Source of the DNA: Podarcis gaigeae
Taxonomy: Eukaryota
NCBI GenBank assembly: GCA_964106915.2
Contig: OZ066916.1
Length of the DNA: 64,000 bases
Strand: one strand, 5' to 3'
Of this stretch, positions 1 to 34,632 are shown in pieces. Below the pieces are notes generated by a model, which had not been told where the DNA came from, did no database searches, and saw only the letters and a list, made by a program, of their open reading frames with translations. Position numbers and translations under genes: made by a program. Within the stretch, counting starts at the first letter, position 1. Every line of letters starts with the position of its first letter.

Positions 1-32
1 TACTAGATAGAGAGTAAACTCTTATCGGTATG

Positions 33-251
33 CAGTGGTACCGCGGGTTACATACACTTCAGATTCTGCTAACCCAGAAATAGTACCTCGGGTTAAGAAC
101 TTTGCTTCAGGATGAGAACAGAAATCGTGCTCTAGTGGCGCGGCAGCAGCAGCAGGCCCCATTAGCTGAAGTGGTGCTTCAGGTTAAGAACAGTTTCAGG
201 TTAAGAACGGACCTTTGGAACGAATTAAGTACTTAACCCGAGGTACCACTG
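33..251. mobile_element. Tc1/mariner-pogo (Tigger-like) MITE, family A, full length
   Basis: TIRs CAGTGGTACCGCGGGTTA / TAACCCGAGGTACCACTG; TA on the right flank (left flank is TG); same internal sequence as 2732-2957 and 20461-20691. Confidence 0.9.
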
Positions 252-1779
252 TATGTGTAGTTTCTTGGGAATCCTTTGTACCCAGTGCATACTTACACAG
301 TGTGTCCCGCATGGGAGAGATTGGGTGAACTGTGGCAGCTCGCTTCTGCAAGAGCCATTTGGCTGGTGGGAGCCTTATGCACAGCAGAGTGCTGCAGCCG
401 AATCAAGTGAATATATTGTGCTTGCAAAAGTCCAGAGCAGTATAGCCCACGCTGTTCACCCTATTGTCTGAAGTATGGTCTGTGACAGATGTTTATATGC
501 TGCTTTCTGGGTATGGTGACTGTCTGCACAGTTGGAGAATAGGACTGTTGCAGTAGTGTGGGCAGAGTGGGACAATATGTTTTGACTTTCTGCTGAAATC
601 AAAAGGAATGTTTAATTTGCACCATCTCGTCTGCTTACAGGTTGTAGGCATGAAGTCTGGGGTATGTTGAATTCAAATTTAGGCCACGTCTCTGCTGCCT
701 ATCACATGCTTTATCCAACTCATTAAGGACCCTAGCCTATGTAAATTTAGACTAGGATTGCACAGTAGTATCCCAAACAGTGCATTTTGCAAAACTAGGT
801 AAACGCTATGTTTCTTTGCTTCCTTAGACTATAGTCAACTTTTCTTCAGCTCCTTTCATGCAAAAGCCATAATGTATTGAATTGCTGGAGTGTGTGGGTT
901 TTTCCCCCTAAGTGGGTGTTCAGCAAATAGCAACAGTCAAAAAATAGTCTTAGACCACAATTACTTATTGCAAATCACAAGTTGCTAGAAATACAGCTCA
1001 CTAATTGGCTTCTTAAAGAGATGAAAAGGGGAAAGAGCAGGCACTTAAAATAAAGCTTCATGTGTCCTTGGTTACGTCTTTGTATATATATATAAAAAAA
1101 TACCTCCTGTTCTTAACCCAAGATAAAATACCTGTTGACATTAATGAATGTGAAAGCCTGGGGTAGGGACTGGAACAGAGGACAGGAGATTGTTTCCTCC
1201 CAAACCCAGAAATAGAAGAAATGGAAATGTTGGGAGAAATGCTTTCTCTTTTGGAACGATGAGAAAAATAGTTTTTAAAGCAATATTTTAAAATAATATT
1301 TATAACCCATTCTTGCTTCTATAAATCTTCTGGATTAAAGATTCTAGGTAGCGATGTTAGTGATGATAGCATTGCTACAGCATTTGATTGGATTACTAAA
1401 CACACTGGAGAAGTACTTTAAAGTGCTGCCAGTGTAGATTCATTTAAATCAAGGCAATTAAAATAATTGATCTAAATAGCCAAGGAAAAGGCTGATTTGA
1501 ATCATTGATTTGGATTAAGTTTCCAGCTTTCTAACTCATATATTTTATAAATAGGTATGTATACTAATTGGTTGCTATAGCAATTGTAACCTATACTTGA
1601 GACTGAATAAAACTTTTATTATATCCACAGGGATCCATCATCATAATGCAGAATCTCTAGTCATGTGGTACCTATGCCTTTTGTGCAACAGAATTAACAT
1701 TTGTTTAGAGGAACAATTCTGAAATTAAGGATATCTGTTTGGCCATATGTATATGTGTGATAAATATATTAAATAATTT

Positions 1780-2015
1780 AGGTAAAGGTAAAGGGACCCC
1801 TGACCATTAGGTCCAGTCGTGGCCGACTCTGGGGTTGCGGCGCTCATCTCGCTATACTGGCCGAGGGAGCCTGCGTACAGCTTCTGGGTCATGTGGCCAG
1901 CATGACTAAGCCGCTTCTGGCGAACCAGAGCAGCGCACGGAAACACCATTTACCTTCCCGCCGGAGCGGTACCTATTTATCTACTTGTACTTTTATGTGC
2001 TTTCCAACTGCAAGG
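1780..2015 (-). mobile_element. Sauria SINE (Podarcis/lacertid type), 5'-truncated
   Basis: (AAAGGT)n tail at the left end; body nearly identical to 47208-47551; tRNA-derived head missing. Confidence 0.9.
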
Positions 2016-2731
2016 ACTAATACCACCTTCAGACACTCAATTTGCATAGAATTAAATATGTGGGGGACAGATCTGGTATATTAGCTTTGGCCCCTGACTG
2101 ATGCATAACCAACAATTGGAGGGGCTTATTCTGAAACATCCTATATACATCCGTTGTGCACGCTCAGGATGTCTGAAAAGAGCTGAAGTGTCCAAAATGT
2201 GTCAAGGCTTGTCATTACTGAACAGTAAATTGCTTTTTATTCACTTTGTTGCAAAATACTAAACATCTTCAGGTGCTATTTGGGAATCTGCCATTTCTCC
2301 CCAAAATCAACAAGGCCTAGGTACTCCATCCTCTTATTTCTGTTGCTTTCACCTTCTCTATCAAGTGAAACAAACTGATGAATTTTTGAAAAGACACGAA
2401 CATAATCAAGGAACAAACTAGCACATGGGAGACCTGAGAAGCTGCAATTCATACAAGCCTTTATTTTCTGAAGTCTATAAAGCTCAAGGTTTAAAATTCA
2501 GAGTCTGTCTGAGGATTGTTTCCTGTTGTGTTCCTCCATAGAGGTTTCTATCTGCAGACTGGAAGACAATTTTTGCTCGCCGCCCCTCCTGCTGTAGCCT
2601 CTCCCCCCACCCCGCCCGGCATCCCTGCAATCTGCTCCAGAAGATTTAGTGGGGATGGGGGCTTGGAACAGTGTAGGAGGGAGAGGGGATTAGCAAAAAG
2701 CACGTTCCTTCCCCACCTGCTGATAGAAGTA

Positions 2732-2957
2732 CAGTGGTACCTCTGGTTACATACGCTTCAGGTTACAGACTCCGCTAACCCAGAAATAGTACCTCGGGTT
2801 AAGAACTTTGCTTCAGGATGATAACAGAAATTGTGCTCTGGCGGCACGGCAACAGCAGGAGGCCCCATTAGCTAAAGTGGTGCTTCAGGTTAAGAACAGT
2901 TTCAGGTTAAGTACGGACCTCCGGAATGAATTAAGTACATAACCAGAGGTACCACTG
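2732..2957. mobile_element. Tigger-like MITE family A, full length
   Basis: TA|CAGTGGTACCTCTGGTTA ... TAACCAGAGGTACCACTG|TA; perfect TIRs and TA target duplication. Confidence 0.92.
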
Positions 2958-5492
2958 TACCAGACAATTTTCCATCAGCACTAGGACACCATCGGATACA
3001 AGATTCTGATATTTAAGATAGTGTTTCTCTAATGAGAATTATGCAGCTATTTTCAAGGATTTACCCTTTATTGGAACAGAGCAGGATATAAATCAATCAA
3101 ATAGATAGAGTCTTGGAATAGCTAAGTTTGCATACAGTAACTATGACACTTTGTGTTTCTCATGATGATATACTATTGAAGGGTTTGGTATTATTATAAA
3201 GCTTAACCAAACATTCAGATATATTACCACTTCTTTACATTATGGGAATGTTTATTTTATAAGCATTTTCTCTAAAATATGAATTACTTCTGTTTTATGC
3301 ATGGCAATCTTATAAACTCAGATAATAAAACCTTCATTTTTTGTGACAATTTATAATGACAATGTTTTAGTTTTTCAACTTTTCTTTTTGTTACTTGTTT
3401 TTCCATCTGGCAAAAACTATCTTAGAGTGCAACAGCTTGCATCTATGTATCTATTAGTAATGATTGCTTCAATAAAACTAAGGCATTTATATGTTTACAT
3501 TTCATAAATACAGCGAACAGTACAATTTTATGTGCTAAATTATACATAATGCATTTCATTTCATGCTGACAAAATTGCAAAGCAGTATTAAGTTTGCATA
3601 TATTTCGTTTTCTCCAGAAAATGTCCATTGCTGTTCCCTCACCACAAAAACAAGAAAGTTATCCCAGTTTCCAAGACTGTGAAATTTCTTTAAAATAAAT
3701 AAATAATACAGCTCTGGTCTTTAGGCATATAGTGTTCCATATGGAAACTTTGGAGGTTTTTATGGTGAAGAAGGCTATGAAAGTCCTGTCTTTGCAAAAT
3801 GGATTACTGCATGCCCTTGATGTTCAATTAATTTTATGAAATAGCTGTTTAATTATTTTATTGGTGCATTCAGAGCTACACATGACAAGCGATAATTACA
3901 GTGCTTCTCATCCGAGAAGATTGATTCCTCGGGTCAAGCCATTTTCTTTCTCTTGTTTTGACAAACTTGTACACATTGCAGTTTGTGTAATAGATTTTGA
4001 AAAACAAAACAACTCATTCATGCTGCCGAAGGGCTGTAAGAGTCAGAACAGAATCAGAATGCTCTGCACAACACTTGACAGAGCTGTGACTTGGCTATAT
4101 ACCAAGTTGGAATTCACCTCCATGTTTTTTTAGGCTGAGATGCATATAATGTGTTTGGGAAATGATCTGTAACCTTTGGCCAGCAATGTCACAAGACATG
4201 GAAAGTATTTTTTAAAAGAAGCAGTGGTTTTTAATTCAAATGAAAGCAGGACTTGTCTTGTACCTTTTCAAGCTGAAGACCCACCTCCTGCAATAGCCAT
4301 GAAATTGACCCTTTGGATCTGCTCAGAACTGCCAAATGAAAATAAGGTTTTCCTTCAAGCGTTGGTTGCTAAGGGCAACTGGAACTGACTCCAAAAGATA
4401 AATACTCTACCTACTTAGAGCATAATGCTTACTTTGTGAGCTAAATAAAGAGCTAAATTACAGAGAAGGAAGTTGCTTAAATGTGAAATATCAAGGGAGC
4501 AAAAACCTAAAATCATTAAGGGCACAGAACTCAGAAAGGGCTTGTAATGCAGTGATTGTGGTGCAGTGATTGTAACTGGCTGAAATTGTTTTAGCCATGC
4601 TATTCAAGGTCCATCCCTCATTATAATGGGTAGGATTAGAGAACTGTCAGGTCCCTATTGGCACTAAATTTGATTGCAATTGCAAATTGTCACTGGGTGT
4701 ATTTCTATAAAGCACCCTAATTGTTCCTAAAATAATTTTAAAGTATTACAAGATGACCCAGATCTATATGGTGGCCCTTGAATTAGTTCTCCTAACTGAA
4801 GGCAGGGCAGAGTCAGATGTCCACACCATAAGGATCAGCACAGTCACACAGAACAGGAATTCATAGTTCAGTTTATGGAATATATATTTTACATCTAAGA
4901 TCTCCTGCTTTAGCAAGGGAATTGTTTTCCAGTGTTCACTGCAGATAAGAAAGAAAAGCAGGATTAATTATTTCTGTCGGGAAATGTAGTAGGAGGGAAA
5001 CAACACATGTTTTGTGCTTACTATGTGATGAATTAAAGAGGCAGTTGGTTGCAAATACATGTTTGAAGCATTCCAGGCAGTCACAGCTGTTTCATGTTCC
5101 TTATTCCTAATTTTATATAGTCTGTGTCCGAGACTTTTGTGAGTGGTTTCCTGGTTATGTACCTGGATGGAGAAGCACTCTTGTGCTGCCTTTCGGATAG
5201 TAGCTACATTCAGACATAAGGCCAAACAATGGATTGACACTATGTTGAAACTTAGAGCAGCTTACAAGCCAGAGTATCAACCCATGGTTGGAAGCTGGTT
5301 TGCAAACCCAAAGTTTTGCTCCTGCTTGTTATTCTGAATTGATAAACTAATCTTTGAGTGATTACTTCAACTAGGGTGAAGTGTAGGTGGATTCAGGCAT
5401 GACCCAAGACTGAGATTCAGCTCGAGAAGGATTTATTGGAACATCAGGAACAAGAAGAACAAGAAAGACAAACAGGGGCACTTGGCCTAGTA

Positions 5493-6597
5493 CAGTCATA
5501 CCTCGGGTTAAAGTTGCTTCAGGTTGAGCGTTTTCAGGTTAGAATCATAGAATCATAGAATCATAGAGTTGGAAGAGACCACAAGGGCCATCGAGTCCAA
5601 CCCCCTGCCAAGCAGGAAACACCATCAGAGCACTCCTGACATATGGTTGTCAAGCCTCTGCTTAAAGACCTCCAAAGAAGGAGACTCCACCACACTCCTT
5701 GGCAGCAAATTCCACTGTCGAACAGCTCTTACTGTCAGGAGGTTCTTCCTAATGTTTAGGTGGAATCTTCTTTCTTGTAGTTTGGAACCATTGCTCCGTG
5801 TCCGCTTCTCTGGAGCAGCAGAAAACAACCTTTCTCCCTCCTCTATATGACAACCTTTTATATATTTGAACATGGCTATCATATCACCCCTTAACCTCCT
5901 CTTCTCCAGGCTAAACATGCCCAGCTCCCTTAGCCGTTCCTCATAAGGCATCATTTCCAGGCCTTTGACCATTTTCTTTGCCCTCCTCTGGACACGTTCC
6001 AGTTTGTCAGTGTCCTTATTGAACTGTGGTGCCCAGACCTGGACACAGTACTCCAGGTAAGGTCTGACCAGAGCAGAATACAGTGGCACTATTACTTCCC
6101 TTGATCTAGATGCTATACTCCTATTGATGCAGCCCAGAATTGCATTGGTTTTTTTAGCTGCCGCATCACACTGTTGGCTCATGTCAAGTTTGTGGTCAAC
6201 CAAGACTCCTAGATCCTTTTCACATGTACTGCTCTCAAGCCAGGTGTCACCCATCTTGTATTTGTGCCTCTCATTTTTTTTGCCCAAGTGCAATACTTTA
6301 CATTTCTCCCTGTTAAAATTCATCTTCTTTGTTTTGGCCCAGTTCTCTAATCTGTCAAGGTTGTTTTGAAGTGTGATCCTGTCCTCTGGGGTGTTAGCTC
6401 CACGGCGACCTGGAAGTAACGGAACGCATTACTTTCGGGTTTTGCCGCTTATGCATGCGCAGACGCTCAAAATGACGTCACATACATGCGCAGAAGCGGC
6501 GAATTGCAACCCTTGCACACGCAGACGCGGGTTGCGTTCTCTTCAGGATGTGAACGGGGCTCCAGAACAGACCCGTTCACATCCAGAGGTACCACTG
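5493..6597. mobile_element. Tigger-like MITE family B, split by a CR1 insertion (pieces ~5493-5541 and ~6397-6597)
   Basis: TA|CAGTCATACCTCGG ... GAGGTACCACTG|TA; the two pieces joined are colinear with the uninterrupted copy at 18829-19082. Confidence 0.88.
5541..6398 (-). mobile_element. CR1 LINE, 5'-truncated young copy; ORF2 C-terminal frame open from 6398 to 5625
   Basis: ANTPEDRITLQNNLDRLENWAKTKKMNFNREKCKVLHLG...LVRPYLEYCVQVWAP...LEKRRLRGDMI...WNLLP is typical CR1 ORF2 C-terminus; short 3' UTR ending in (ATTCTATG)n octamer repeats. Confidence 0.96.
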
Positions 6598-7359
6598 TAT
6601 ATATACCTTAAGCCAGCCCAGGCAAAATACACATACTGCCCGTGATAGGTCGCCTTAATACTGCAGTTAGTGAATCACAACACTGGCCCTATCTCAGCAG
6701 GGATTGGCTGCCTGCCAGCTACTAACAATGTCATTGGAGGGTTTTAGAATCCTCTCTGTCTTTTGTTATGCAGATGAAGCTCTTGACCTCCAGGAGGCCT
6801 GAAGGCCTAGGCCTGCATTGCATGCATAGAGTCTGGCTTTGGCCTACAGTGCTTGCATACATAACATGGGGGTTCAGCAAATAGCAAACAAAAGCAGAAT
6901 AAACCATGGTAAGTAACATGGTTTCTCTTCTGTGTCCAGAAATTCAAGCCATGGTATGAGATTTTTTAGTAAAAGCATGTAAGGTGGGGCACAACCACTG
7001 AACTACTCAGTGGGACAGCAGTTGGGTAGAACATCATGGCTGTGAGGGCATGGGAGCACCTGGTTGCTTGTGGCAGGCATAGATACACATGTACTTGTGC
7101 CTGCCACTACCAACCCAGTGTTTGCTCTGCCCTCAATGCCACACTGCTCCATTGTTTGTCGCTTGAGAAAATGAAATAGCAAGAGGATGTTAGATCCACA
7201 GGAAGAGGGGAAACGGTACCCGTTACTCAAAGTTGTGTTTGGGTCCCTGGGTAAAGAATAATTGTAAAGCAAACCAACCACTGTAAATAGAGTTGTTTTC
7301 CTCAGGAATGGCAAATCAACATGGCAACCCACTGGTTGAAGCAGAGGAGACAGGTGTAG

Positions 7360-7760
7360 GCCTGGAAATGATCTGGGTCCAGACTATTTCAGGGAATGTC
7401 TTATTCCAAATGAGCACCCTGCACAGTTCTTTGAGATTTCCTAGTGACACCCTGCTAGGGATGTCATCGTTTGTGGTTGGAAGGTTAGGGTCTGCTAGGA
7501 GCAGGGCCTCCTCTGAGGTTGCTCGGATAATGTAAACTTCCCTTCCACAGAAGGTGTGTTTGACCTCGTTATTTCTTTACTTTCAGAAGCGGGCAAAATC
7601 TTGCGCCAGGCCTTGAATCCACGGTAGTCCTGCTAATTACTGTTCGGTTGTTATGTTTTTTATGTGTTTTTAAGTTATTATGCTTTTTGCATTGGATCAT
7701 GCTTTTATATTGTAAACCATTTTATAAATGAATATGGAAAAATGGCATACAAACCTTGCA
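7360..7760 (+). mobile_element. Old L2-type LINE 3' fragment
   Basis: Degenerate match to the L2 3' end seen at 44611-44930 (e.g. gcagggcctcctctgaggttgctc, then a T-rich UTR); boundaries approximate. Confidence 0.5.
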
Positions 7761-7778
7761 GGTAAATAGATCAGATCA

Positions 7779-7819
7779 ACCTCCAGAATGACTTAAGTAT
7801 GGAACCAGAGGTACCACTG
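7779..7819. mobile_element. Isolated right end of Tigger-like MITE family A
   Basis: acctccagaatgacttaagtatggaaccagaggtaccactg|ta matches the right terminus of the full copies. Confidence 0.75.
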
Positions 7820-9463
7820 TACTTTAATGGTCGCTATGAGGTACGCATAGAAATGGGTATGGTTCAATCAGTAGTTGGATCTAAAGATGGCACGTCAATT
7901 ATTAAATCCGTTGACTATTTAGGTATTTTATTTTTGTTTAGTGATGGTTTTAAAAGAAATCTCCATGACCGCTTCTGAAGATGAGACAACTAAGCTGGGA
8001 TACAGAAAGACTTGAGCCAAAATCAATTGGAGCTTTCCACTAACCGTATAATAGGCTTAGTTCCAGATCTACAGCTGAGAAGATGTAACCCTCAGTTGAA
8101 ATAGAAAGGCAGAATGTAAGCCCCACTCTGCACTGTAAAATCAGGGAACCTGCTGCAGTAACATTTACAGTAATTGGCTTATTACAACTACTCTTGCGGG
8201 GTTTGGTTTTTCTTTAAGATTTATTAAGCTTTTGGATTTCACAGTAATAAGGTGCTTACCTGTGAGGATGTCATTTGAGCTAATTCTGCAAACTACATTG
8301 ATGGACTTGTGGGTTACTTGCCATAAATATTCGCTCTCCCCGTCCCCATTTAATAGGGAGGTCCATTTTTGTAAATCTTGGTGAGTAAGCTGGTATAATA
8401 GTTGTACATATTTTCTCTCTGTTCAGTGCTGGGCATGTTTGCAGTATGAGGCTTGTTCCTGTTATATAAAATAACGTTGTTGAAACAGCGTTCCAGATCA
8501 TTTACTGATGGTTTGTAATAGAGGAAGAGAACGGGTGTAATCATATAAGCATCTAGAAACACAAACATAAAAATATCAAAATGCAGCAGCTATCATGTCT
8601 GTCATTGCCATTAACAAGGTGACAATTTTTTCAGGGAGCCATCTGCTATTTGTCAATAAGCCAATGAAATAACAAGTGACAGTCAGAGGATAACAAGGAG
8701 GCTAGCATTTGCTACTGTGCAGACTCCCATCTATAGAGTAATATGGAACCACAGTGTTAGAATAAAGTTGAAATACACAAAAGGGCATGCAGACAGTTTT
8801 GATGGGTATGGGTGGAAGGGGCTCATACTGATCCCTGTTAATTGGGAAAGATTTCTATAAAAAAAAATAAAACCTATTGCTGGACATGTTTTGGGTTCTA
8901 AAGGAATCTCCCATCTGTGGGCTGTATCCAACACTTCTGTTGTTCAAGTGGGACAGACTTCTGCTTGTGCAGTAGGACTTTCTCTCCTTGTCAGCCACCC
9001 TGCACACAATCAAAATCCATCCTAGAGGGTTGAGGGACAATTTGGAGCACATTATAGGGAGCATGGGAAGGGCTGCCAGAGGGAGGAGAGGAAGGGCAAT
9101 TGTGTTGCACATTTATAACTCTGCTCATGCAGCACTGAATACAACTCTGTGTTCCTTCAAAGCCCTCTGAGCAGGCTGGGCAGGTTTTAAAGGGAGAGAT
9201 GGTTGAGAATAAGTTGTTCAAAGGAAGACAGACCTGCCATGATAAGAGTCTAGCGTGAGCCCTATAACTGGACTTGCTTCCTGGCTGCCTCACAACTTCC
9301 TGTCCTTTTCAGTTAGCTGTGTCTTGACACTGGGCCCTAAGTAGATGCTTACAGAAATTAATTAGCTGCAAGGATGCATATCAAATGCCTGTTCCAAAGG
9401 GCGACTGAGAATCAGTTAATTTACTGTTGATTTGAAATATATGTTTTCAATTTTTTTCCATAG

Positions 9464-9603
9464 GTCCAGCCCTCTTCAGTCCTACTAGGAACATCCACAT
9501 ATGTGGTCTGAAGTAAACGGCCTAAGCATCATGATCTATGCTGGTAATATCACATCAACTCTGGAAATCCACTGAAACCTGGAGCCAGAGGACAAAGGTC
9601 CAG
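9464..9603 (+). other. Candidate spliced exon A (140 nt, probably non-coding/5' UTR, contains uORFs)
   Basis: Acceptor ttttcaatttttttccatag| and donor CAG|gtgagta; stop codons in all three frames; no resemblance to the repeats in this window. Confidence 0.6.
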
Positions 9604-9777
9604 GTGAGTACTGTTTTTAGTATATTGTGCTGTTTCACAAAGTGGTCAACATGACTTTTAACCCAAAGAAATATAGAACTTTGCAAAACGACACAATATA
9701 CTAAAAAGTTCTGAAAGTAAACAACCCTCCCCTTACTCCCAATCCAACATTTCTTGAATTCTCCTGACTCTGCATAG

Positions 9778-9833
9778 GCTTGACTGCATGCTCCAGTGGA
9801 CTTCCATAGTTGTTGTGAAATCACCAGTATGGC
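9778..9833 (+). other. Candidate spliced exon B (56 nt), complementary to exon A; ends in agtATGGC (possible start codon)
   Basis: Acceptor ttctcctgactctgcatag| and donor GGC|gtaagta; TGCATG motifs at 9785-9790 and 9867-9872. Confidence 0.45.
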
Positions 9834-10103
9834 GTAAGTAACATTTCTGAGATGCAATTACTATGGTGCATGCACTCATCATAAACGGCAAGTTAAAATG
9901 CAGTCCCTAGTTGCAACATCTGTGGCTTATAAATCTAAGAATACCAATTCCACACCCAAAACAATTCTGCAGATACAGTCACATATTAGCCTGGTTTGGA
10001 AAATTGTATCTTGACTTAATAAGCTGATATATGAATGCATCATTTTGTGTGTGTAGACTGCCCTGCCACAACTCTTGGCAGTACAAGCAATCAAACCAAG
10101 AAA

Positions 10104-10131
10104 TTTGTATTGTATTGTATTGTATTGTATT
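10104..10131. repeat. (ATTGT)n microsatellite
   Basis: ttgtattgtattgtattgtattgtatt. Confidence 0.9.
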
Positions 10132-11521
10132 AATTCCACTTAGCTTTTTTTAGAGAGAAAAAGTCTACGCCATTTATAATTATCCATTGTTTCCTATTTC
10201 ATCCAAACAAATTAGGATATTAAGCCAGTTTTATTTAATACACTGGCTTCTTCCAAAACAGGCAACCATAGTTTCCCAGTTTGGACAAATTAGGAAACTA
10301 TTGTTAGAGGCTTCCTGGTTTGACTGCACACACTGCAGAAGGGACTGTATGTGTTGGCAAAAGTCTTGTTCATATTTTTGCTTATTAAGCTAATAAGATT
10401 GTTTGAACATAGTCACTAATGACTATGTTACAAGTTCTTCCTTGTCCATGAAATGTGATTTAGACTATTCTTGTTCTGATCTAAATAGACCATATATCAA
10501 AGACAACACAGGCTTTCTATTTAAATGCATACAGTATTTTTAAAAATAAACCAGAGAATAACTTTGTCTGTTCAGTGTTGCCAAACAACACACTTTTCTA
10601 CACTTTCTAGAGGAAGAGTAGAGACCACAATTTATTCTAATCTTAGGTCTGAAGACAATAAGTCTTTGTAATTAATCAAATAGATAGTTTTAACACATAC
10701 TATTAGGTGTCTGGTTTGCTTTCACTCTTCCTCTTTTCATGAGCAAATTTCACTTAAAACAAAAACGGAAACCTGTATGGACCATTCAAGAAGCTATAAA
10801 CTTGTTAAAGTGGCTAGATTTCTTGCAAGTTACGACATATTGGTTGCCTTAAGATACTTATCCATAGAGTTGAAATTAGTACGTCTTCATTAATGTGTAG
10901 TTTTGACTTACACATAGAGAGATTGGGAAATATACTATTCACTACCTTATCTATGGTATGTTTGTGTAAACACACACACACGGCTGAACCCAATGGTCTA
11001 AACTGGGTATAAACTGCCTAAATACTTGCATGCCTGAAGGTGCAAGGGGGGGATGGAGAGATGGAGATGGGTCTACGTTTCTTTCAGAGCTGCGAAATCT
11101 TCTGCCTCTTCTGTTACTTACCCTCTTTGATCTAGCTGTCAGCACCCTGCGCACAAACCAGTAATCAGCAGAGGTGCCAAAGACTGGCTAAAGATCTGGA
11201 TGGTTGCCTCCAGCAACTGCAGACTTCTGGGGGAGCAGTGATTCTCCCTTCTGCACACCTAGCAGTACATAGAAATGCTCATATTCCAGCTCCATCGTGA
11301 AACACAGCTAGTATATATTGGAGATACATCATATTTGTATTGTAAACTGGACTGTGATCTTCGGATGAGGGGCAGTATTGAAATTTTATTAATGATGATG
11401 AAGGTGATGACTTGTCAGAGCACATTCACTGGCATAAGAAGCAAACATGAGACCAAAAGCAAATGTGTGTCTGCGAGGTTACACTCAGAAGTGTGTGTTA
11501 CAGTCTCCCATGAAAATGTTT

Positions 11522-11615
11522 CCCATTAGCTAAAGTGGTGCTTCAGGTTAAGAACAGTTTCAGGTTAAGTACGGACCTCCAGAACGAATTAAGTACTTAA
11601 CCCGAGGTACCACTG
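11522..11615. mobile_element. Right half of Tigger-like MITE family A (left half missing)
   Basis: cccattagctaaagtggtgcttcaggttaagaac...cccgaggtaccactg|ta, nearly identical to 2864-2957. Confidence 0.88.
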
Positions 11616-14600
11616 TATATCATACTGTGTACCACTGTTTCTCCAGAAAAAGGTACGGTATACAGTTTTTAACAAATTGTATCTAATCTGCAGAAATTCC
11701 TTATATGTTTCACTACTCCCAAAAGGTTAAGAGTATTTTAACTACTGATCTCCAAAGTTGAAAAAAATAAATATATGTTTATGTAACCTCTAGGCAATCA
11801 GGTCTTTGTTTTGTTTTTGTTTTTTAGAAGATCTACCATTGTGTTTTATTTGCCTTTTTATCATATAGTGTTTTTTTTATCACGCTCATTGAGCATTCTG
11901 TTTATATAGCATAAGATTATTTGCAACACAAATTGGCATTCATTATAACTCCAGATTATTCTTTTTTTAAAGAGGCATTTTAATTTGTATAGAACAGTTT
12001 GCATTATTAGCAGTACAATTAATGATGACAAATGCACTCAGAGCTAATGGAAAAAAAAATTATTGTGAAATTTCAGATTTTCCTTTGCACCAAATAGGAA
12101 TAGTATCATCGCAAGTCCTAAAAATGTATCTTGTCATGCTTAGTCAGGATATAAAAAGGTTCCAGGGCACTTTTTCATTGCAGTAGAACAACTGCTATGA
12201 GACTAAACCCGGTGGTGTTTGCAGCATACTTAATATATGAAACAATAAGAGAACAGTTAGGGTTGTTTCCCCCCTCTTCTTAACCCCCAAAACATTTGTG
12301 CACAATCTTAGTAAACATAACTCACAATTGCTTTGTCAATTGATACTACCCTCATGAAGTGTTAAAATGAGCAGGTAGAACTTCCATCGTCTTCTACGAA
12401 ATGCTGGCAGAATTGGAGCACAAAGTTTAATCACAGCTTGAAATTGAGCCCTTTGTTAAAGTTACTAACACTGCATTGAACCTATCCAAGGACAGTGGCA
12501 TTAAGAAACTTTCTATTCACTCAGTAGATTTAGGTCAAAGCCTTCAATAGTGGTTCCATGTATTTAGGAGTGAAAGTGAGATTTTCTGTGTTTGAGGAAC
12601 TAAATTACATTTCTGTTATGAGGAAGCCAGAGTTGAGAGTTATTTGTAGATGAATTTCCTGTAGCTTTAATATAAATTGGGTAGGGAAGTTTGCCTGTCT
12701 TATCATTTGTTTCTAAGAAAGTTGCTGGTCTGTACATCTGCCCTCTCAAAAACAAAAGGCATAATAAAATCACAGAATATTCCAAACACCTGAGCAGCTT
12801 TCACATTATGCGGGTACTGTACATAGGTAGAACACAGAGTGGGGCTGCATTGTTGGCCCCACCTCTGACATGCACAGTCATGCTAGATCAACCCCACAAT
12901 GTCTGGATGTCTGAATAACTGCTAATACATAAGGACTACTATTCAGACATCCATGTTCAGTCTATAGATGTGGGAGGGAAGGCAACACTTTAAGGCTGCA
13001 AACTCACTGGTATCTCTGGGTCGACATTGCATATTCTTCAGACAAATACAGACGATGCAGCCCTTGACCGTAAGCTTGCAATCTAAAAAGACACAACGCA
13101 AAAGGAAAACAGGTTGGGAGGGAGGAGAAAACAAGCACAACAGATACAAGTTCTTCTGGTGTCTAATTGGGGTGCGGGAAACTCAAGGAGAGGAGAAGCC
13201 AGCCATTGCTTGTCTCCTAAGAGGTGCCCCTGCTTCTTTTCACTTCGCCTCTGCTACAGCCTGACGTAATGGATTCTGCCAGTGAAATTGGGAGGGAGCA
13301 GCCTAGCTTCTCAGAGGAACTTACCATTTGCCCCCTCTAAGGTCTGATCCAGGACCCCATTTCTGCAATTTCCATAGGGGGGGAGGACGCTACCGTTGAA
13401 GGAAATGGAAGCTACCGGTATTTTCCTAAGTAAATTGCACAGGGAGCAGGGGGGAGTTAAAGCTCCCCCTCCCATACCAGTGTAGAGTTTGGGCACACTA
13501 TACTGAAAAAACCCAACAACCAGGGCTGTGGGATGCTTGCCCTCAAGGGCTAACTACGAAGTCAGATGACCTGAAAAGTGAGATGCTAACTAACTAACTA
13601 AAACTCTGTAAGAGGAAAAGCACGCTGCTGGAAAAAGTCGATCGACTTTATTCCATTTGTTAACATATTACTAGCATTATGTCAGAGACAGACTGTGTAT
13701 GTTAAATGACAGACAAATTACATCTTGTCAGGTAATTTAATAAGACTTGAATGCTTACTAAAGTAGGTTCTGCTTCTGCACATAAGGCAGGTTTCATATT
13801 ATACAGCAGAATTTCACGCAGATGGAAGAAACAAGGTTGCAGATTTTGGGAAATCCTTGGCAAGGGTTCTTATCCCCCCCCCAATCATCTGTCAGTTTAG
13901 AAAACGTATATGTCACATTTACTGCGTGTGTTGCATCATTCAAAAATATCATAAACAGTCATAAATATGATATTAAAACCACTGAAATCTTAATATTCTT
14001 AAAAATAGGCTCCTAATTGAAGCATCCCATTTAATATTCATACTTAGATTAAGAGGTATGGACGAACATTTCCTCTGCAACATGGTGCTTTTGCAAAACC
14101 AACAACAATCGCTGCACAGTAGTATCCACTTCGAACTGCGAGTCATAATACAGCCAAAATTATCTATTTAATATACAGAAGTCTATTAAGAACTGATTCA
14201 TAGTGATGTTCCTCTTGGAGATTAGTGGGAAACATGCACTCTTGCTCCAATCTCCTGCAATTATAGTCAGAGAAAAATTATATTCAAATATTAAAGAGAC
14301 TACCAGTCATCCATAGAATTGCCATAATTAAGAAAGAACAGTCCTTGAATAGTCATTAAGTAGTCTTAGTGATTCAGATTAAGCTTAGTAAAGTGAAAGG
14401 AAGCTCTTTCCACTGTACAGTAGCCCTTTCAGTGTCTCTTCATCATAATGAAAATGTGAATAGTTCTGTCCCACTAGAATTACTCTAGCATCTATTCTTA
14501 GGTCATTACTTTTTAAGAATATGAAACATACACACGTGCTGAATACTCTCAATTTTACACTCAGGCTATGAAATTTTAATTTCTAACTTTCTTAAAAATT

Positions 14601-15038
14601 GAGAAAGTTACATTTCCACTGCATCTCGCGATTATGGGGCATTTTTTGTGTTTAATGTCTAAAAGACTACTGTATTTACAAATACTGAAAAAGGAAATAC
14701 TATAATTTTAATAAAAGACTCAGACATTTTTGCCCAGCTATGTGCTTTCCCAGAAAGTCTTTTCAAACATCAGCATCAGATCACTTTTTAATGTTGCGCT
14801 TCAGGCTTTCTGGTAGAATTATTGTCGTGAGTCATATTTAACCTTTGTACAATTTCGGGTTGCATGCAGAGGTTAGAGATGAAATACTTCTTCATCCTGA
14901 AGTACGCCAATGATTCTTTACAGTCATTGGAGACTGACATGCAGTTAAGAGCTTAGACAGGGAGCTACATCAGAAATGAAATCTTTGTTTTGTCTGCTTC
15001 CTATTATCACCTGGCGATTTGCTAATCAGCTGACCAGT

Positions 15039-15077
15039 TAAGGAAGAGCTTTTCTATGTAAGGAAGAGCTTTTCTAT
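15039..15077. repeat. Short tandem duplication (20-nt period)
   Basis: taaggaagagcttttctat occurs twice, separated by one base. Confidence 0.85.
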
Positions 15078-16539
15078 TGGTAAAGAGAAACCATGTTCAG
15101 ACACAAACATGAGGAATGTATAGCAGCCATGATATCAGAGTGGCTATATGTTTTCTGTTTTGAGTGGCGCTGTGACGAGGTTTTTATGAATCCTTGTGTG
15201 CAGCATCTGCAGATAATAAAGAAGCACTTATTTTTGCAATTTCTTTGTGCTACTTCTGATATTGAAATGCCCCTCCCCGAATGCTATGGCAGTAAGTCAT
15301 GTGATAGAAACTCATGTGTCAGAGTTGGCATATCCTGAATAGGGATGTCTAAGAATTTATCCAGAAAGAGAAGTGCTAATTCCTGGTGTTTATTTGTCCC
15401 ATGTCCAGAACAAAAAGCCATCTTGCCCATAACTATTGATATTTACTGTTGCTATTGTTTTCAGTCTCCAAATGATACATAACTGCTAATGTTCGCTCCC
15501 ATCACCACCACATTTCCATTTCATTTCCTTTCCATTGAAATGAATGGTTTGGGGAAATATAATATATTACATAATTAATTATGTAACATTCCGTCCCAAC
15601 AGATAGCGAGATGGAAAGCGTATTTTTTTTATCAGAAACCAAACTGTAGCAGAATGGAGACAGCGCTGCATGCAAAATGAAAACAGTTCAGAACAGAAAT
15701 CAGTTATTTTTTACATTTCTAATCCTGAATTATTTAGCAAAAGAGGCTAGGTCTGAACTGAATGTTCAAGAGTGCCCCTTTGAAAGAAGTCAGTTCAAAA
15801 TGCATAGGGATCAATAAAAATATGTGTATCCTGTGCGTCTAGAGATCTCCTTCCTTAATTTTTATTTCAGTTGGTCCCTCCTCACCTATTTTTCTTGTTC
15901 ATGCTTCTATTTGGTCATAATTCCTCAGCTGGATATGATAGATGGCCACATCATGGTGAATGTGCTGAGAATCCCAGAGAATATTTGGCATACCGGTTTT
16001 ATTTTTTTATTTATAAAAATACTTATAGGTCATTCATATAAAATATCAGGGCAGTATCCAACCAAATGTGCAAGTATAATCAAACATAACATACTGTAAA
16101 AACAATAGAATACAATATTTGGCTTGGCTGTGCAAATAAGGAGTCCTGCACCAAAAAGCTTTTAAAAATAAATAAATGAATAAATGAACACCTGTCATCA
16201 TGCTGTGGCAACCAGGGAATTCCTATTTCGAATGATTTAATTTCTGCCCTGGACTATGCAGAGGAAGCAACAGCGGTAACAAATTGACTTCTGAGGAATC
16301 CACTGCACAATGGGCCATCCCAGTGGAGAGTCCTTAGAAGTCTCTTCCTATAGGATTAAGAGGGACATGGATGCATATGCCTACATTCCAATGAACCACC
16401 TGACACGTTTCACGTATCCAAAGGGGACCTTGGGCTTCTCTGTATTGGATAGCACCTGTGTTGAAACTGAGTTTCAATAGTATTTTGTAATATTGCATGA
16501 GGGCCTGCAGTTTAAAGTGGGGGAATGGGCAGTAGTACA

Positions 16540-16888
16540 TGTTGTGACGTGGGGTTTGTGATTTCAGCTCTCTTGACATAATATGCTGGAGACAGTTCTC
16601 TAGTAACACTTCTTTATTAACGCAACAAGACTGAAACTTGAGGAGGGGAGAGCTACATTTATAGGGACAGGGAACAAGCTAGAAAGGATACATTTTGGAG
16701 GGAACAATATCAGGCAATCACAGTCCTGCCTTTTGGAGGCAACCAATAAGACAGAGGATCCAAATACAGCAGCTTAAATGAACCAATAGTAGCTGTACCC
16801 TCTGGAACCAAAAGGCAGTTACTTTACCCTCATGCAAATACAGACAATAATAATACAGATATAAAATCCTTTGACTCAATACACAACA
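16540..16888 (-). mobile_element. Solo LTR, 349 bp
   Basis: TGTTGTG...CACAACA termini; exact 5-bp TSD GTACA (16535-16539 and 16889-16893); on the minus strand TATAAAT (16657-16663) lies upstream of AATAAA (16613-16618); CCAAT at 16743 and 16783. Confidence 0.85.
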
Positions 16889-16978
16889 GTACACATTGTC
16901 AAGCATTGTGACTCTTGGCCAAAGCTCCTCAACTAGAAGTTGTAGGTGATCATTCTTAGGTGAGGTCATTCTCATTGG

Positions 16979-17155
16979 CAATGCTTTTTTCCCCTCAAAA
17001 TTTTTTTTAGGGTTACTCTCATTTTGACTCAAGAAAATCAACATTTTATAGTTCAAATTGGGGAAAATAAATAAATAAATGGACAAAAGTACAAAGATTC
17101 ACAAAATGTTTAGGGGTTTGCGTACCCCTGTGTCTCCCCAGAAAAAAAAGCACTG
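16979..17155. mobile_element. Non-autonomous DNA transposon (hAT-like)
   Basis: Termini caatgcttttttc / aaaaaaaagcactg; TSD poorly preserved. Confidence 0.55.
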
Positions 17156-18828
17156 ATTATGGGAGATCAATACGTTGTCTCTAGGATGTGGTAAAAGGGG
17201 CTCCCCTAACTAGCAGAGACTGCTCAAGCCGCCAGTATCACCACAAGGCCAGTATCTAAAGATAAGGTAATCTTTAAAATAAATAAAAAATCCAAACAAA
17301 TTATTTAAAGCTGCTATGGTTATTATTTTTTGCCCCTGGTTTGTAGAATAGAATTTTCATTTTTCTTTCTTACTGGTTCCATGTTCTCAAATGGGAAAAC
17401 TGGTTTGGGTGCCGGAGAAATGTAACCTCCTTTCACTGTACAGTGTAAAAGTAAAATGAAATGAAATCTGTATTTGGCTTCGAGGCCTGGATTAAATAGT
17501 GTATTAGTCACTCGCTATTGGATTTGTGTCTGCTACACATAATCAAATCTATTGCTAATTGAACAAAAAGGGATTACATTGACTGGCTATAAAAAGGCTT
17601 AAGTATAAAGATTCCAAATGGATAAACCGGCAGCCCTGGCTCGGTGTGTTATGTTGACTGAGGTGAAAGGAAAAAGGTGCCCAAGACCAGTACTCCTACT
17701 GAAGAAAATAAACAGCAGAAAAAAGCCATATGCAGATACATTGCCCTATGGATAACTCTTCAGCAGATTCAAAATTATAGTTGTGAATCTGATAATTTGT
17801 ATTGCATACTTACAATAAAAATAAAAGTTGCAAGGCAGAAAGGGAGGCCAAAGATTCTATTAGCTGTGGGGCAGCAGATCATGAGCTCTTGTGGGTGGAG
17901 ACCGATCAACACTGAAGTTAGAATATACGAATCTGTTCTGACATTCATTCATACTTTCACCTGGTATTTTCTGTTGGGTTGCAAGAGGTTCATTTTCCAC
18001 AAGTCTGTCTTCTGTTTTCCTGTCCGCTGATGCAACTTAGTGGGGTGACACCTCTGGAAATATGGCTGGAAAGTTAACCAAATTTGGCTGCATTCCGCTT
18101 CTGTTTTAGAAAAACCATAGTTTAGCATATTGGCCCTAAACTATGGTTTATTCTTAACAGTGGTTAATTGGAGCAAGCCAGATCATGAGATTTGAATTAT
18201 TGATTGTTTGAATTAAGAACAGTCTAGGTTCAATCTTCAGTTAATCGAAAATGACAGCAAAAGCTTTCAATCTCCTCCTTGTGGCTAGGAGAATCCAGGG
18301 CTCACCGTGGTGCATTTCACATAGGAGGCCACGCTCTACAGCTGATTGTTGCTGCCCTAATTCACTCAGTCATCCTCCCCCCTTCTTGCTTGTTGTCTTG
18401 TGAGCTGTCGCCAGCTTTTTGAATATCTCAAATAATTGACTAACAACCCGATCCTAAATCCATTAATTCTGAAATAAGATTCATGGCTTTCAATGGGAGT
18501 TGCTTGCTGACAGATACACTTGGCTCTGCAACTTAAAAACTGGCCTTTATTTGAGCTGCCGCCTCTGTTGTTTATTAGGTTTGTGTGTTGCCTACAGCAA
18601 AGACTCTAGGTGAATTACAACATACAAAATCATGGATAACAAAGTTTAAAATACATAATTACATCTCATAAAACAACATCAAACAAGCAACTCCTCTATT
18701 ATACAGAACTATAAATAAAAGAAAATCCTGCATACCAAAAGCAACAAAAGTAACAATCATCCCACAGTTGCTAGGAGAATAGTGTTGGCTGTAAACCCTC
18801 TGAGCTACTCTTAAAACTAATAAAAGTA

Positions 18829-19082
18829 CAGTCATACGTTGGGTTAGATGTGCTTCGGATTGAGTGTTTTCAAGTTACGCTCCGCGGTGACCCGGAAGTA
18901 ATGGAGCACTTTACGTCCGGGTTTCACCACATGCGCAGACGCTCAAAATGACATCACGCGCATGTGCGGAAGCAGCAAAACGCAATCCATGCACACGCAG
19001 ACGCGCTGTCACATCTTACGTTTTACTCAGGATACGAACGAGGCTGTGGAACAGATCCTGTTCGCATCCAGAGGTACCACTG
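18829..19082. mobile_element. Tigger-like MITE family B, uninterrupted copy
   Basis: TA|CAGTCATACGTTGGGTTA ... GAGGTACCACTG|TA; homologous to 5493-6597. Confidence 0.88.
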
Positions 19083-19176
19083 TACTAAAAAGAGTACTAA
19101 AAATTAATAAAAAGCTGCAAATATAAGTCTCTGGGATTAATTAAAAACATATGGTCAAATGGGTGATTCCTAGCAC

Positions 19177-19338
19177 TATGGGAGCCAACACCTAGGGGCC
19201 GAAGTCCCTTCATCCCCCCACTAATAAAATATTTGAGGGAGCTGCTCCCCAAGTTGAAGAGCATTCCCACGTCACCAGTTATGCAGGGCAGGGCTTACCT
19301 GCCCCCCTCCCAATATTTTATTTAAGTTGGCACCCCTG
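19177..19338. mobile_element. hAT-type MITE
   Basis: Degenerate TIRs tatgggagccaac / gttggcacccctg; 8-bp TSD cctagcac / cctggcac (7 of 8 match). Confidence 0.65.
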
Positions 19339-20460
19339 CCTGGCACTACCGAATAATTGCTCTTCAACTCTAACCTACAAGTTGAATTGCAACTGAATTT
19401 CCAAACTCCTGGGATCATTGCATTTTAAAAATGTATGCATCTTGCTGCTTTCCAGTACACTAGCAGGCATGATATTGCCAGTGTGGATGGGATTCAGAAT
19501 ATTTGGCTGGTTGTTTTTTGTGTTTTTTAAAAAAATACTTAATTAGCACTAGAGTGCTTATTCATAAAAATGTTTCAAAATGTTTGCCTTTGATTACAAA
19601 TGTAAATCTGTATAAAAGAGTATGAAAATATTTTCTGGAATTTGATTTGACCAACATTTTGCAGTTTTACTTTCTAATTTAATGAAAACGTTGAAACCCA
19701 TTTAAAGCTATCACAGAACTGCAAGGGATATCCCTAAAATCCAGAGAAAACTGTGCTATTTTTATGATCTGGGAAGCTGCTACTTTCTGAATATACCCCA
19801 AGATTGCTCCTCGGTGATAATAGCTGTGTGCTCTCACTGCTAGGGGTGCTGAGATCCTTCTTTGATACTTACATTCTGTTTGCATCTTTTAATGACTCTC
19901 ATGAGTTTTCACTGTCAAAGGTGATCAGATTCCAGGTATTACAATGACAGACTTAAGCACCTGTAGGGAAAATGTGTCAAAATAAAAGTTATTTTTGCTG
20001 GTATTTTTTAAAAGGTCAGAGACTGAATAATTTTTTTCTGTGTTTTAGCATTAAATTCCTATCATAACCATTAGCACCTATTTCAGTTTCAGTATTAAAA
20101 AAATGCCACTCTTCTTTTTTGCCTTATACATTTCACAAAGACTCAGGGCAACTTTGAATAACAGAACAGCAGTTTCTTGCTCTGAAAGAATTCCAAACAT
20201 GCTCAGCAAGTTAAACTTTTAATTTGATTTAGGGTTTATTATAGTGAACTGCTGGATGTCCCTAAATAACATCCAGTGACATCATCATATGTTTTCATGT
20301 GCAAAGTAAATATTTTACGTGAAAGCCAAATCTTAATCTTGCTCAGAGAATTAGAACACCATACAAATTGCCTTTTCTTTAGAAGAGCTCTAGAGATGCT
20401 TGAGGATTTTGGGGTGCATTGGTGAGGGAGATCTGCAGTCAAGAGTGAATTCACTTTATA

Positions 20461-20691
20461 CAGTGGTACCTCGGGTGACAAACACCTCGAGTTACAAACA
20501 CTTCGGGTTACAGACTCTGCTAATCCGGAAGTAGTACCTTGGGTTAAGAACTTTACCTCAGGATGAGAACAGAAATCGCGCAGCAGCAGCGGGAGGCCCC
20601 ATTAGCTAAAGTGGTACCTCAGGTTAAGAACGGTTTCAGGTTAAGAATGGACCTCCAGAACGAATTAAGTTCGTAACCAGAGGTGCCGCTG
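20461..20691. mobile_element. Tigger-like MITE family A, full-length variant
   Basis: TA|CAGTGGTACCTCGGG ... CCAGAGGTGCCGCTG|TA; internal homology to 2732-2957. Confidence 0.9.
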
Positions 20692-23033: not shown

Positions 23034-23169
23034 CAGGCATAGGCAAACTCGACCCTCCAGATGTTTTAGGACTACAATTCCCATCATCTTTGACCACTGG
23101 TCCTGTTAGCTAGGGATGATGGGAATTGTAGGCCAAAAACATCTGGCGGGCCAAGTTTGCCTATGCCTG
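23034..23169. mobile_element. Palindromic hAT-type MITE, 136 bp
   Basis: TIR CAGGCATAGGCAAACT; exact 8-bp TSD TTTTATAT; core ctacaattcccatcat...atgatgggaattgtag. Confidence 0.92.
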
Positions 23170-24129
23170 TTTTATATCATCAGGCTAGATTCACCTGAAC
23201 TTCAGAAAGAGACAGTTCTGCATAATTTCCTTATAGCTTTAGACCCCCAATGTACCAATCATTCAAGCATATAAAAAGTATTTCTCCTTAATTTCGGTCA
23301 CAACATCAGCTTCTCTTGTTCTCACATTTAGACCCATGATATACCAGCACTAACAACAAAAGTTGCTCAAACATTTCAAGAGAACTTTCCCCTTTTTTGC
23401 TTACAGAATGTCAGGGTTTATTTTCTTGTTTAATTCACCTATGACCCTTGAAACGTTTGTCAGATACATTTGACCCTAGTATATATTTTCAAGTGAATAA
23501 TGCTTCCTATTAATCTAAGAAAGCAATACTATGGAGATAAGAAATTCCTATAATTTGGCTAACATGTCCTGAAAAAGGACCATACAGAATATTGTCCTTT
23601 TTACTGTCCATTCTTTCCCCCATCCCAAATTCACTTTTTTTTCTGGTTCCCATAGATGATTGTCAACAAAGCATATCAAAGGATGTCACATGTTGTTTAT
23701 CTTCTCCTGTCACTTGAGAAAACTAATTGACAAAATGGGTCCTCTTGAGAAAATAGCTAATGAAAGAAATCTGCAAATCTGATTACATATCCACAGATTT
23801 AATTTACTCTCAACCTTTTGGCTAGTTATTTTGTAGGAAATAAATCTTTATATTGTCTGGTCTCATCTTTGAAAGCAGATGCAGGTGGCATTCCAGGTAT
23901 ATATTACCCAAATTCAGAAAATTGGTTTATTTGTTAAAATGAAATTTTTACAAAGGTGGAGTCATATTTTATGATCCTAGCAAAAAACAGTATAATCTCA
24001 ATAAGATGTATTTGAGGACAGTGACATGTAATTATGCAATGGTTTTACATTCAAGTGGTCTATGAATCTTAGTTAAAAACTGCTGGGGACACCTGTAATC
24101 TAAAACTAGTTTGTTTCCAGCTCAGTCTA

Positions 24130-34414: not shown

Positions 34415-34632
34415 AAAACAAAAAAAATTCCTTCCAGTAGTACCTTAAAGACCAACTAAGTTAGTTCTTGGTATGAGCTTTCGTGTGCATGCACACTTCA
34501 GGTATCTGAAGAAGTGTGCATGCACACGAAAGCTCATACCAAGAACTAACTTAGTTGGTCTTTAAGGTGCTACTGGAAGGAATTTTTTTTGTTTTGACTA
34601 TGGCAGACCAACACGGCTACCTATCTGTAACT
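34415..34632 (+). mobile_element. Penelope-like element remnant (inverted pLTR end), young
   Basis: 85-bp inverted arms (34415-34499 / 34511-34595, 1 mismatch) plus tail gaccaacacggctacc; exact 13-bp TSD TAAACTGATGGAA (34402-34414 and 34633-34645). Confidence 0.88.
34501..34540 (+). ncRNA. Minimal type I hammerhead ribozyme motif (Penelope-associated)
   Basis: GGUAU-CUGAAGA-A-GUGUG(CAUG)CACAC-GAAA-GC-UC^AUACC: helix I of 5 bp, complete core, helix II, minimal palindromic helix III (AGCU). Confidence 0.75.

What the first reader, a model, noticed from the sequence alone, without database searches (positions are those of the whole stretch)
9464..9833. Two adjacent candidate exons are reverse complements: a splice-assembled ~52-bp hairpin that pairs two AUGs
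SEEN: 9538-9587 matches the reverse complement of 9781-9830 at 39 of 50 positions with no gaps, and two more pairs (U9537-G9831, C9536-G9832) extend the stem. Each arm lies inside its own AG...GT-bounded segment (9464-9603 with donor CAG|gtgagt; 9778-9833 with donor |gtaagt), separated by a 174-nt intron. The stem ends 1 nt before the second donor, and splicing would shrink the loop from 193 to 19 nt. The upstream AUG at 9538-9540 (short uORF MLVISHQLWKSTETWSQRTKVQ|A*) pairs at the stem base with the AUG at 9829-9831, which has a strong Kozak context (A at -3, G at +4) and is followed by GC|gt. TGCATG occurs in exon B and 34 nt into the downstream intron. KNOWN: UGCAUG is the RBFOX site, and long 5'-UTR hairpins and uORFs repress translation. 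INFERENCE: a cassette-exon switch in a 5' UTR or lncRNA, where including exon B builds a structure that hides or supplies a start codon. I do not recognise the gene or a described element.
Basis: partly seen in the sequence, partly recalled or inferred. Interest (0 to 1): 0.75.

Follow-up and report, generated by a model that had tools for sequence, protein, structure and literature searches.

The report
Self-pairing cryptic exons in lizard KCNQ5
Deep in the first intron of a lizard's KCNQ5 potassium-channel gene, two small exon-like segments are complementary to each other and enclose a second hairpin; their splice signals and stems appear to be kept in a diverged relative, so they likely form a structure-controlled splicing switch that would turn the channel down, although no spliced RNA was seen.

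Summary
The inverted repeat is real (39/50) and was found once in the genome. Spliced between exons 1 and 2, exon A stops the frame after 22 nt and B alone frameshifts. One homologue, an antisense ORF from an unnamed Logan contig, implies 0 of 32 informative splice-region bases changed, 5 of 73 in stems, 25 of 131 elsewhere. It loses the upstream AUG and the exonic UGCAUG and shows no proven compensatory change. RNA gave no support: two low-depth contigs cross exon B unspliced, and exon A had no coverage in 4 of 4 runs. Best reading: a conserved, structure-gated poison-exon pair (0.4). Boldest: a leader for an N-terminally truncated Kv7.5, since B's AUG is in frame with exon 2 (0.2).

The parts
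9444..9463 (+). Pyrimidine tract and AG acceptor of candidate exon A
   Evidence: 7.7 bits, crude matrix; 14 of 14 informative bases identical in the homologue
9464..9603 (+). Candidate exon A, 140 nt; stops in all three frames; stop at 9486 in the KCNQ5 exon-1 frame
9538..9540 (+). Upstream AUG of a 23-codon ORF that would end at codon 2 of exon B; weak context; not kept as AUG in the homologue
9538..9587 (+). Outer stem, 5' arm (firm core 9538-9574)
   Evidence: 19 of 19 informative bases in 9541-9574 identical in the homologue
9601..9609 (+). Donor of exon A, near consensus
   Evidence: 8.6 bits, one of 3 such donors on the sense strand of the 160 kb scanned; GT fixed in the homologue
9614..9707 (+). 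Nested intronic hairpin, arms 9614-9643 and 9678-9707 (26/30), 34-nt loop; takes up 94 of the 174 nt between A and B
   Evidence: z -3.8 on +, -6.4 on -; found once; arms 3 of 35 informative bases changed, loop 3 of 15
9758..9777 (+). Weak pyrimidine tract and AG acceptor of candidate exon B
   Evidence: 3.4 bits; G9777 fixed and A9776 by parsimony in the homologue
9778..9833 (+). Candidate exon B, 56 nt; frameshifting if included alone
   Evidence: its splice pair ranks only 865 of 2498
9781..9830 (+). Outer stem, 3' arm (firm core 9794-9830)
   Evidence: 17 of 19 informative bases in 9794-9827 identical in the homologue
9829..9831 (+). AUG with A at -3 and G at +4, two bases plus one codon before donor B, in frame with KCNQ5 exon 2; paired at the stem base
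   Evidence: A and G fixed, U by parsimony in the homologue
9831..9839 (+). Donor of exon B, directly at the end of the outer helix
   Evidence: 8 of 8 informative bases in 9828-9841 identical in the homologue
9867..9872 (+). Downstream intronic TGCATG (RBFOX-type motif; name recalled)
   Evidence: first 5 bases fixed and identical in the homologue, the sixth lies outside it

Best explanation
This is likely a pair of conserved cryptic poison exons in KCNQ5 intron 1 whose use is likely gated by a nested RNA structure. Shown: position, strand, complementarity, stop codons and frames. Inferred from one homologue: selection on the four splice regions and both stems. Inferred mechanism: in the pre-mRNA the inner hairpin folds away 94 nt of the short A-B intron, and the outer helix pairs the 3' half of A with B up to B's weak donor. 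That would normally hide both exons and tie their use together. When they are included (perhaps helped by an RBFOX-type protein at the downstream UGCAUG), the exon-1 reading frame stops 22 nt into A, many junctions before the end, so the mRNA would be degraded by nonsense-mediated decay and Kv7.5 output lowered.
For: Host gene and place: exon 1 ends near C3:37,835,775 and exon 2 starts near 37,996,290; the last exon's protein is 100% identical to a Podarcis KCNQ5. A, or A+B, gives a stop 22 nt in; B alone shifts the frame. In the homologue three stops remain in that frame by parsimony. Exon A ranks 2 of 2498 sense pairs; the best antisense pair scores 16.1 against A's 16.3. Homologue P0239 (E 1.4e-9) spans 9419-9871 with 9 indel events; informative bases changed: splice regions 0 of 32, stems 5 of 73, rest 25 of 131 (Fisher p 0.013 for stems against rest). 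Control: a pseudo-exon on the minus strand loses both its splice sites in the homologue. The implied homologue folds into 35 outer and 29 inner pairs, against 34 and 27 here. Precedent: structure-controlled poison exons of BRD2/BRD3 (PMC10789245); 73% of conserved cryptic exons are poison (PMC11632617).
Against: No spliced form was seen. Contigs X1 9763-9982 and X3 9744-9935 run unspliced through both sites of B and account for all depth in bin 9420-10003 (835 vs 836; 444 vs 442). Exon A has no coverage in 4 of 4 runs (depths 2-4, raw runs read to 12% and 6%). B's splice pair is weak (rank 865). No compensatory change is shown: of three changed core pairs two break (9547/9821, 9560/9808) and one is undecidable (9555/9813). 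There is only one homologue, its bases are inferred from protein, and it was found through part of the same region. The minus strand folds better (-126 vs -109 kcal/mol). A plain poison role does not explain the in-frame strong-context AUG.
Confidence: 0.4

Rival explanations
1. A and B are the leader exons of a transcript from an unknown promoter in intron 1. B's AUG starts an N-terminally truncated Kv7.5 (two residues, then exon 2, in mid-S1). The AUG is buried at the base of the hairpin, and a ribosome translating the short ORF through arm A would melt the stem and allow re-initiation.
For: The AUG is in frame with exon 2. Only 11 of 247 GTRAG donors in intron 1 have an in-register strong-context AUG within 56 nt, and 5 of 247 have one at this offset. 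In the homologue the short ORF's frame and stop persist by parsimony: its stop changes to another stop, and a different AUG 7 nt upstream comes into frame through a 5-nt insertion (27 vs 23 codons). Six of six mismatches at 9540-9567 fall on third positions of this frame (0.4% for any one frame, post hoc). Lacertid gene models use another alternative first exon at the same joint (P0125, P0130, P0134; C3:37,965,154).
Against: None of 232 retrieved KCNQ5 proteins with the exon-2 start has Met-Ala before it (288 retrieved, only part of the large clusters was listed). A begins with an acceptor and no upstream first exon or CpG island was found. A -41 kcal/mol core duplex should block scanning. The third-position bases of arm A are invisible in the homologue, so coding constraint is untested.
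Confidence: 0.2
2. A conserved intronic RNA structure that acts without splicing: an ADAR substrate, a miRNA-like precursor (inner hairpin), or an antisense RNA fold. The splice-like signals are incidental or silent.
For: The only RNA seen is unspliced. Eight A-C mismatches on + become G-U on -. At least two mismatches (9549, 9561) and the inner-stem mismatch position stay mismatched in the homologue.
Against: The acceptor of A lies 75 nt from any arm yet is unchanged (14 of 14) beside exon sequence that changed at 9 of 45 informative bases. The 8:3 bias is not significant (p 0.23). No Rfam family reaches its threshold. The two contigs show no A-to-G change in arm B.
Confidence: 0.2
3. A decayed or exapted fold-back transposon (possibly a DNA-level enhancer), with splice-like motifs by chance.
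For: Fold-backs of this quality occur about once per 30 kb here, and most are MITE-like. The two stems can be read as one old palindrome with a 47-nt indel. The genome search is a lower bound.
Against: No second copy by BLAST or by degenerate patterns with 3 and 2 mismatches (only the two arms each). The arms and splice regions changed less than their surroundings. A transposon origin would not exclude the exon role.
Confidence: 0.15

Closest known systems
BRD2 exon 3b and BRD3 exon 5b: poison exons controlled by pairs of conserved complementary regions (PMC10789245; abstract and one results section read)
   Same: Cryptic or poison exon in a conserved intronic element with long-range base pairing predicted to set inclusion.
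   Different: There the paired regions lie in flanking introns and loop the exon out. Here both arms lie inside two neighbouring exons, with a second hairpin nested between them; the host is an ion channel; nothing is validated here.
[quoted passage not shown]
   Same: Unannotated exon-like conserved element, stop-introducing, with flanking intron retention common.
   Different: Those were defined by split reads, which are lacking here. KCNQ5 was not found in the one supplementary file held.
N-terminally truncated KCNQ1 isoform 2 and the KCNQ3 alternative first exon (recalled; no paper describing them retrieved); lacertid KCNQ5 models P0125, P0130, P0134
   Same: A few residues from an exon in intron 1 joined in frame to exon 2.
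   Different: B is preceded by another internal exon and its AUG is buried in a helix; no protein model uses it.
Site-selective ADAR substrates with an exon paired to a nearby complementary sequence (GRIA2-type; recalled)
   Same: Imperfect 35-50 bp helix with A-C mismatches ending at a donor.
   Different: No coding codon to recode and no editing seen.

Membership tests
Poison exon (AS-NMD) | Lies in an intron of a coding gene on the sense strand | tested here: met
Poison exon (AS-NMD) | Inclusion creates a stop more than 50 nt before the last junction | tested here: met
   stop 22 nt into A; B alone frameshifts; many exons follow
Poison exon (AS-NMD) | Conserved splice sites | tested here: met
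   0 of 32 informative bases changed, but in one homologue inferred from protein
Poison exon (AS-NMD) | Junction reads show inclusion | tested here: inconclusive
   none seen; 2 of 2 contigs unspliced at depth 2-4; no coverage of A in 4 of 4 runs
Poison exon (AS-NMD) | Inclusion rises when NMD is blocked | not testable with these tools
   needs cycloheximide or UPF1 knock-down data
Pair of conserved complementary regions controlling splicing | Both arms conserved above surroundings | tested here: met
   5 of 73 vs 25 of 131, p 0.013 nominal
Pair of conserved complementary regions controlling splicing | Compensatory substitutions | tested here: inconclusive
   three core pairs change: two break, one becomes G-C or A-C; third-position bases hidden
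Alternative leader giving a truncated KCNQ isoform | AUG in frame with exon 2 | tested here: met
Alternative leader giving a truncated KCNQ isoform | Own promoter or first exon, or an annotated product | tested here: inconclusive
   0 of 232 proteins with this N-terminus; no CpG island; no 5'-end data
Multicopy MITE / DNA transposon | Many dispersed copies | tested here: not met
   only the two arms found; very old copies could be missed
Known Rfam RNA (miRNA, SECIS, IRE) | Score above the gathering threshold | tested here: not met
   0 hits in the window; best local matches 16.5-18.7 bits against thresholds of 53-106
ADAR site-selective substrate | A-to-G differences in RNA against DNA of the same animal | tested here: inconclusive
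   0 differences in two low-depth contigs over arm B; arm A not covered

The most novel reading that the evidence does not exclude
Two exons that pair with each other form a translational latch in an alternative KCNQ5 leader. The helix buries an AUG that starts an N-terminally truncated, possibly dominant-negative Kv7.5 subunit. A short ORF running through the 5' arm, kept by start-codon turnover and a stop-to-stop change, unlatches it when translated. The same exons poison the full-length mRNA when spliced to exon 1.
Probability: 0.2. Interest if true: 0.75.

Novelty: new variant of a known kind. Interest (0 to 1): 0.52.

Why it matters
KCNQ5 (Kv7.5) carries part of the M-current and is dosage-sensitive in neurodevelopmental disease (recalled). 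An unannotated, conserved off-switch in its giant first intron would be a new control point. If it exists in mammals it would be a place for non-coding variants and an antisense-oligonucleotide target. Exon-to-exon pairing with a nested intronic hairpin differs from the described intron-to-intron loops around poison exons. How far it is conserved beyond one unnamed relative is unknown.

Tried and rejected
Pfam on 146 ORFs from 25-17098 (144 of the 212 of 45 aa or more below 24 kb, plus two shorter ones at the element): one sub-threshold hit, no coding exon. Rfam: nothing at threshold. Sequencing runs: no RNA holder listed on record. The read lay was swamped by repeats, and 77 joints, 312 differences and 6141 pieces were not shown; the raw runs X16 and X18 had zero depth at the element and are uninformative. 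Zero differences over 9744-9982 in organism A is weak evidence of constraint (p 0.035 at a rate from one other contig; runs were chosen by exact words). Metagenome scans: 0 hits; one 27-nt hit inside a GC-rich bacterial membrane-protein ORF (CcmC-like by recalled motif), treated as chance. No further homologues of P0239 at 83-266 aa or 30-82 aa. The 100-aa minus-strand ORF is not taken as a gene: the homologue changes frame across it. Recursive-splice site at acceptor A: the following bases are a poor donor; by eye only. Literature: no paper on this element among the listed results; KCNQ is absent from the main text of 10.64898/2026.10.24.761493 (passage search). One paper was not held. The supplements of PMC10573301 and of bioRxiv preprints could not be seen and may list a human counterpart. 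Earlier scan findings: none bear on this.

Full report
Observation. The described arms, splice-like signals, AUGs and TGCATG motifs are all present. The stretch folds far better than shuffles (z -6.4). A second inverted repeat, 9614-9643/9678-9707 (26 of 30), sits inside the 174-nt spacer, starting 10 nt after donor A. In the unspliced RNA both helices form together: a core outer helix (duplex -41 kcal/mol) closing a multiloop that holds donor A, the inner hairpin (-27) and the tract and acceptor of B. The stem therefore does not need splicing to form; splicing would only shorten its loop.

Is it a repeat? Imperfect fold-backs are common here: 30 at 35/50 or better in 464 kb, 15 at 39/50 or better, ten of these locally multicopy. 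This one has no second copy by BLAST, or by degenerate patterns of either stem with 3 or 2 mismatches, which returned only the two arms each. These searches are lower bounds, so a very old element is not excluded. Rfam has nothing at threshold.

Host gene. The window is G000:C3:37,882,001-37,946,000. With 200 kb fetched on each side, a KCNQ C-terminal domain lies at 38.07-38.08 Mb on + and GidA/MTO1 exons beyond it; exons upstream resemble RIMS1 (name recalled). The last exon's protein is 100% identical to Podarcis muralis KCNQ5. Exon 1 ends near 37,835,775 and exon 2 begins near 37,996,290, so the element is on the sense strand about 55.7 kb into a 160.5-kb intron 1.

Frames. Exon 1 ends in phase 2. 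Inserting A, or A+B, gives a stop 22 nt into A; B alone shifts the frame. A has stops in all three frames. B's AUG at 9829 is followed by two bases and the donor, the same phase as exon 1, so it is in frame with exon 2. Among 247 GTRAG donors scanned in intron 1, 55 have an in-register AUG within 56 nt, 11 in strong context and 5 at this offset. Of 288 KCNQ5 proteins retrieved, 232 show the exon-2 start; 49 of those have a non-canonical N-terminus and none is Met-Ala (at most 15 members per cluster were listed). Three lacertid models use a different alternative first exon, at 37,965,154. Sixteen proteins start at an internal methionine in exon 3, which implies non-coding upstream exons that I could not map.

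Splice strength. With a crude matrix from recalled frequencies, A's acceptor-donor pair ranks 2 of 2498 on the sense strand of intron 1 (16.3 bits; rank 1 lies in an antisense retroelement remnant; best antisense pair 16.1). B ranks 865. Exon-like segments as good as A cover 0.1-0.7% of the intron and B-like ones about 4% (thresholds set after seeing the data), so one arm in each is unlikely by accident.

A homologue. A search of 1.84 billion proteins with the 100-aa minus-strand ORF gave one hit, P0239 (E 1.4e-9), a singleton ORF from an unnamed 1882-nt Logan contig. It runs through all three of our minus frames and aligns over 9419-9871 with 9 indel events, so it is an accidental antisense translation of a homologous element, taken to be the orthologue. 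Counting only bases fixed by the residue, changes are 0 of 32 in the four splice regions, 0 of 16 in 9575-9600, 5 of 73 in the stems and 25 of 131 elsewhere (p 0.013 stems against rest; 0.0002 with splice regions and 9575-9600 added; nominal). The hit itself covered 9558-9760, which favours conservation there; acceptor A, arm B and donor B lie outside it. A minus-strand pseudo-exon loses both its sites, supporting the plus strand. Lost: the AUG at 9538 (A to G, still pairing as G-U) and the exonic TGCATG. Kept: the downstream TGCAT, and A and G of the 9829 AUG. Of three changed core pairs two break and one goes from U-U to G-C or A-C, so covariation is not shown. By parsimony the short ORF crossing the A|B joint persists: its stop changes to another stop, and an AUG 7 nt upstream enters the frame through a 5-nt insertion. 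The third positions of that frame, where six of six mismatches at 9540-9567 fall, are the ones the protein hides. The source is far more diverged than the DNA runs that hold 69-97% of 31-mers; its identity and distance are unknown.

RNA. Four of 23 listed runs were laid on 6500-24000. X1 and X3 (RNA by guess) each give one contig, 9763-9982 and 9744-9935, at depth 3.8 and 2.3, unspliced through both sites of B and without differences. They account for all depth in the bin, so no spliced contig is hidden among the rows not shown. Exon A has no coverage in any run; raw runs X16 and X18 have none at the element. This counts against frequent inclusion but is too shallow to exclude a rare, NMD-cleared or tissue-specific form.

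Mechanism. Best supported (0.4): a structure-gated poison pair. Inclusion would stop Kv7.5 at the start of S1 and trigger decay; the helices would keep the exons hidden and coupled, and the conserved downstream UGCAUG would promote inclusion (RBFOX position rule recalled). Rivals: leader of a truncated channel with an ORF-operated latch (0.2), a structure acting without splicing (0.2), an old transposon remnant (0.15). The first two share real exons (0.6 together) and can coexist.

Comparison and novelty. It would work like BRD2 exon 3b and BRD3 exon 5b (PMC10789245; abstract and section 17 read) and belong with conserved cryptic poison exons (PMC11632617; abstract, section 16, supplement search). 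Membership is unproven without junction reads. It differs in that both arms are exonic and enclose a nested hairpin. I found no description in the listed results; most subscription journals and several supplements were not searchable. Verdict: a real, apparently conserved, undescribed element in KCNQ5; new variant of a known kind; interest 0.52.

Noticed in passing
L025:9154-9173 (G000:C3:37,965,154): Coding end of the alternative first exon used by lacertid KCNQ5 models P0125, P0130 and P0134: seven residues joined to exon 2, an annotated N-terminally truncated form.
   Followed up: partly
proteins P0017, P0123, P0128, P0149, P0154, P0155, P0191 and others: Sixteen KCNQ5 models from squamates, crocodilians, birds and a mammal start at an internal methionine in exon 3, hinting at widespread non-coding or frame-breaking upstream exons.
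   Followed up: no
window 5625-6428 (-): 267-aa open remnant resembling a CR1 retroelement ORF2 end (name recalled); its antisense strand holds the top-scoring pseudo-exon 5910-6056.
   Followed up: no
window 23021-23182, 34420-34590, 42155-42320, 63530-63690: Locally multicopy palindromic MITE-like elements with near-perfect arms.
   Followed up: partly
L013:104-213, L013:340-572, L026:7317-7427, L033:2796-2963: Other strong fold-backs (42-50 of 50) with no second local copy; genome-wide copy number not checked.
   Followed up: no
L009:5244-8494: Broken LTR-retrotransposon (gypsy-like by recalled motifs) protease, RT and integrase pieces between the RIMS1-like exons and KCNQ5; observed only.
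   Followed up: no
L032:7725-8042 (-): Open frame resembling an Mpv17/PMP22-family protein (recalled) antisense inside a KCNQ5 intron; no Pfam hit at E 0.05; possibly a retrocopy.
   Followed up: partly
window 10264-10305: Tight 20-bp hairpin (85%) that attracts 113 reads with loose ends in single-cell run X16, i.e. a short element shared with another expressed locus.
   Followed up: no
window 8933-8978: 24-nt tandem duplication about 500 nt upstream of exon A.
   Followed up: no
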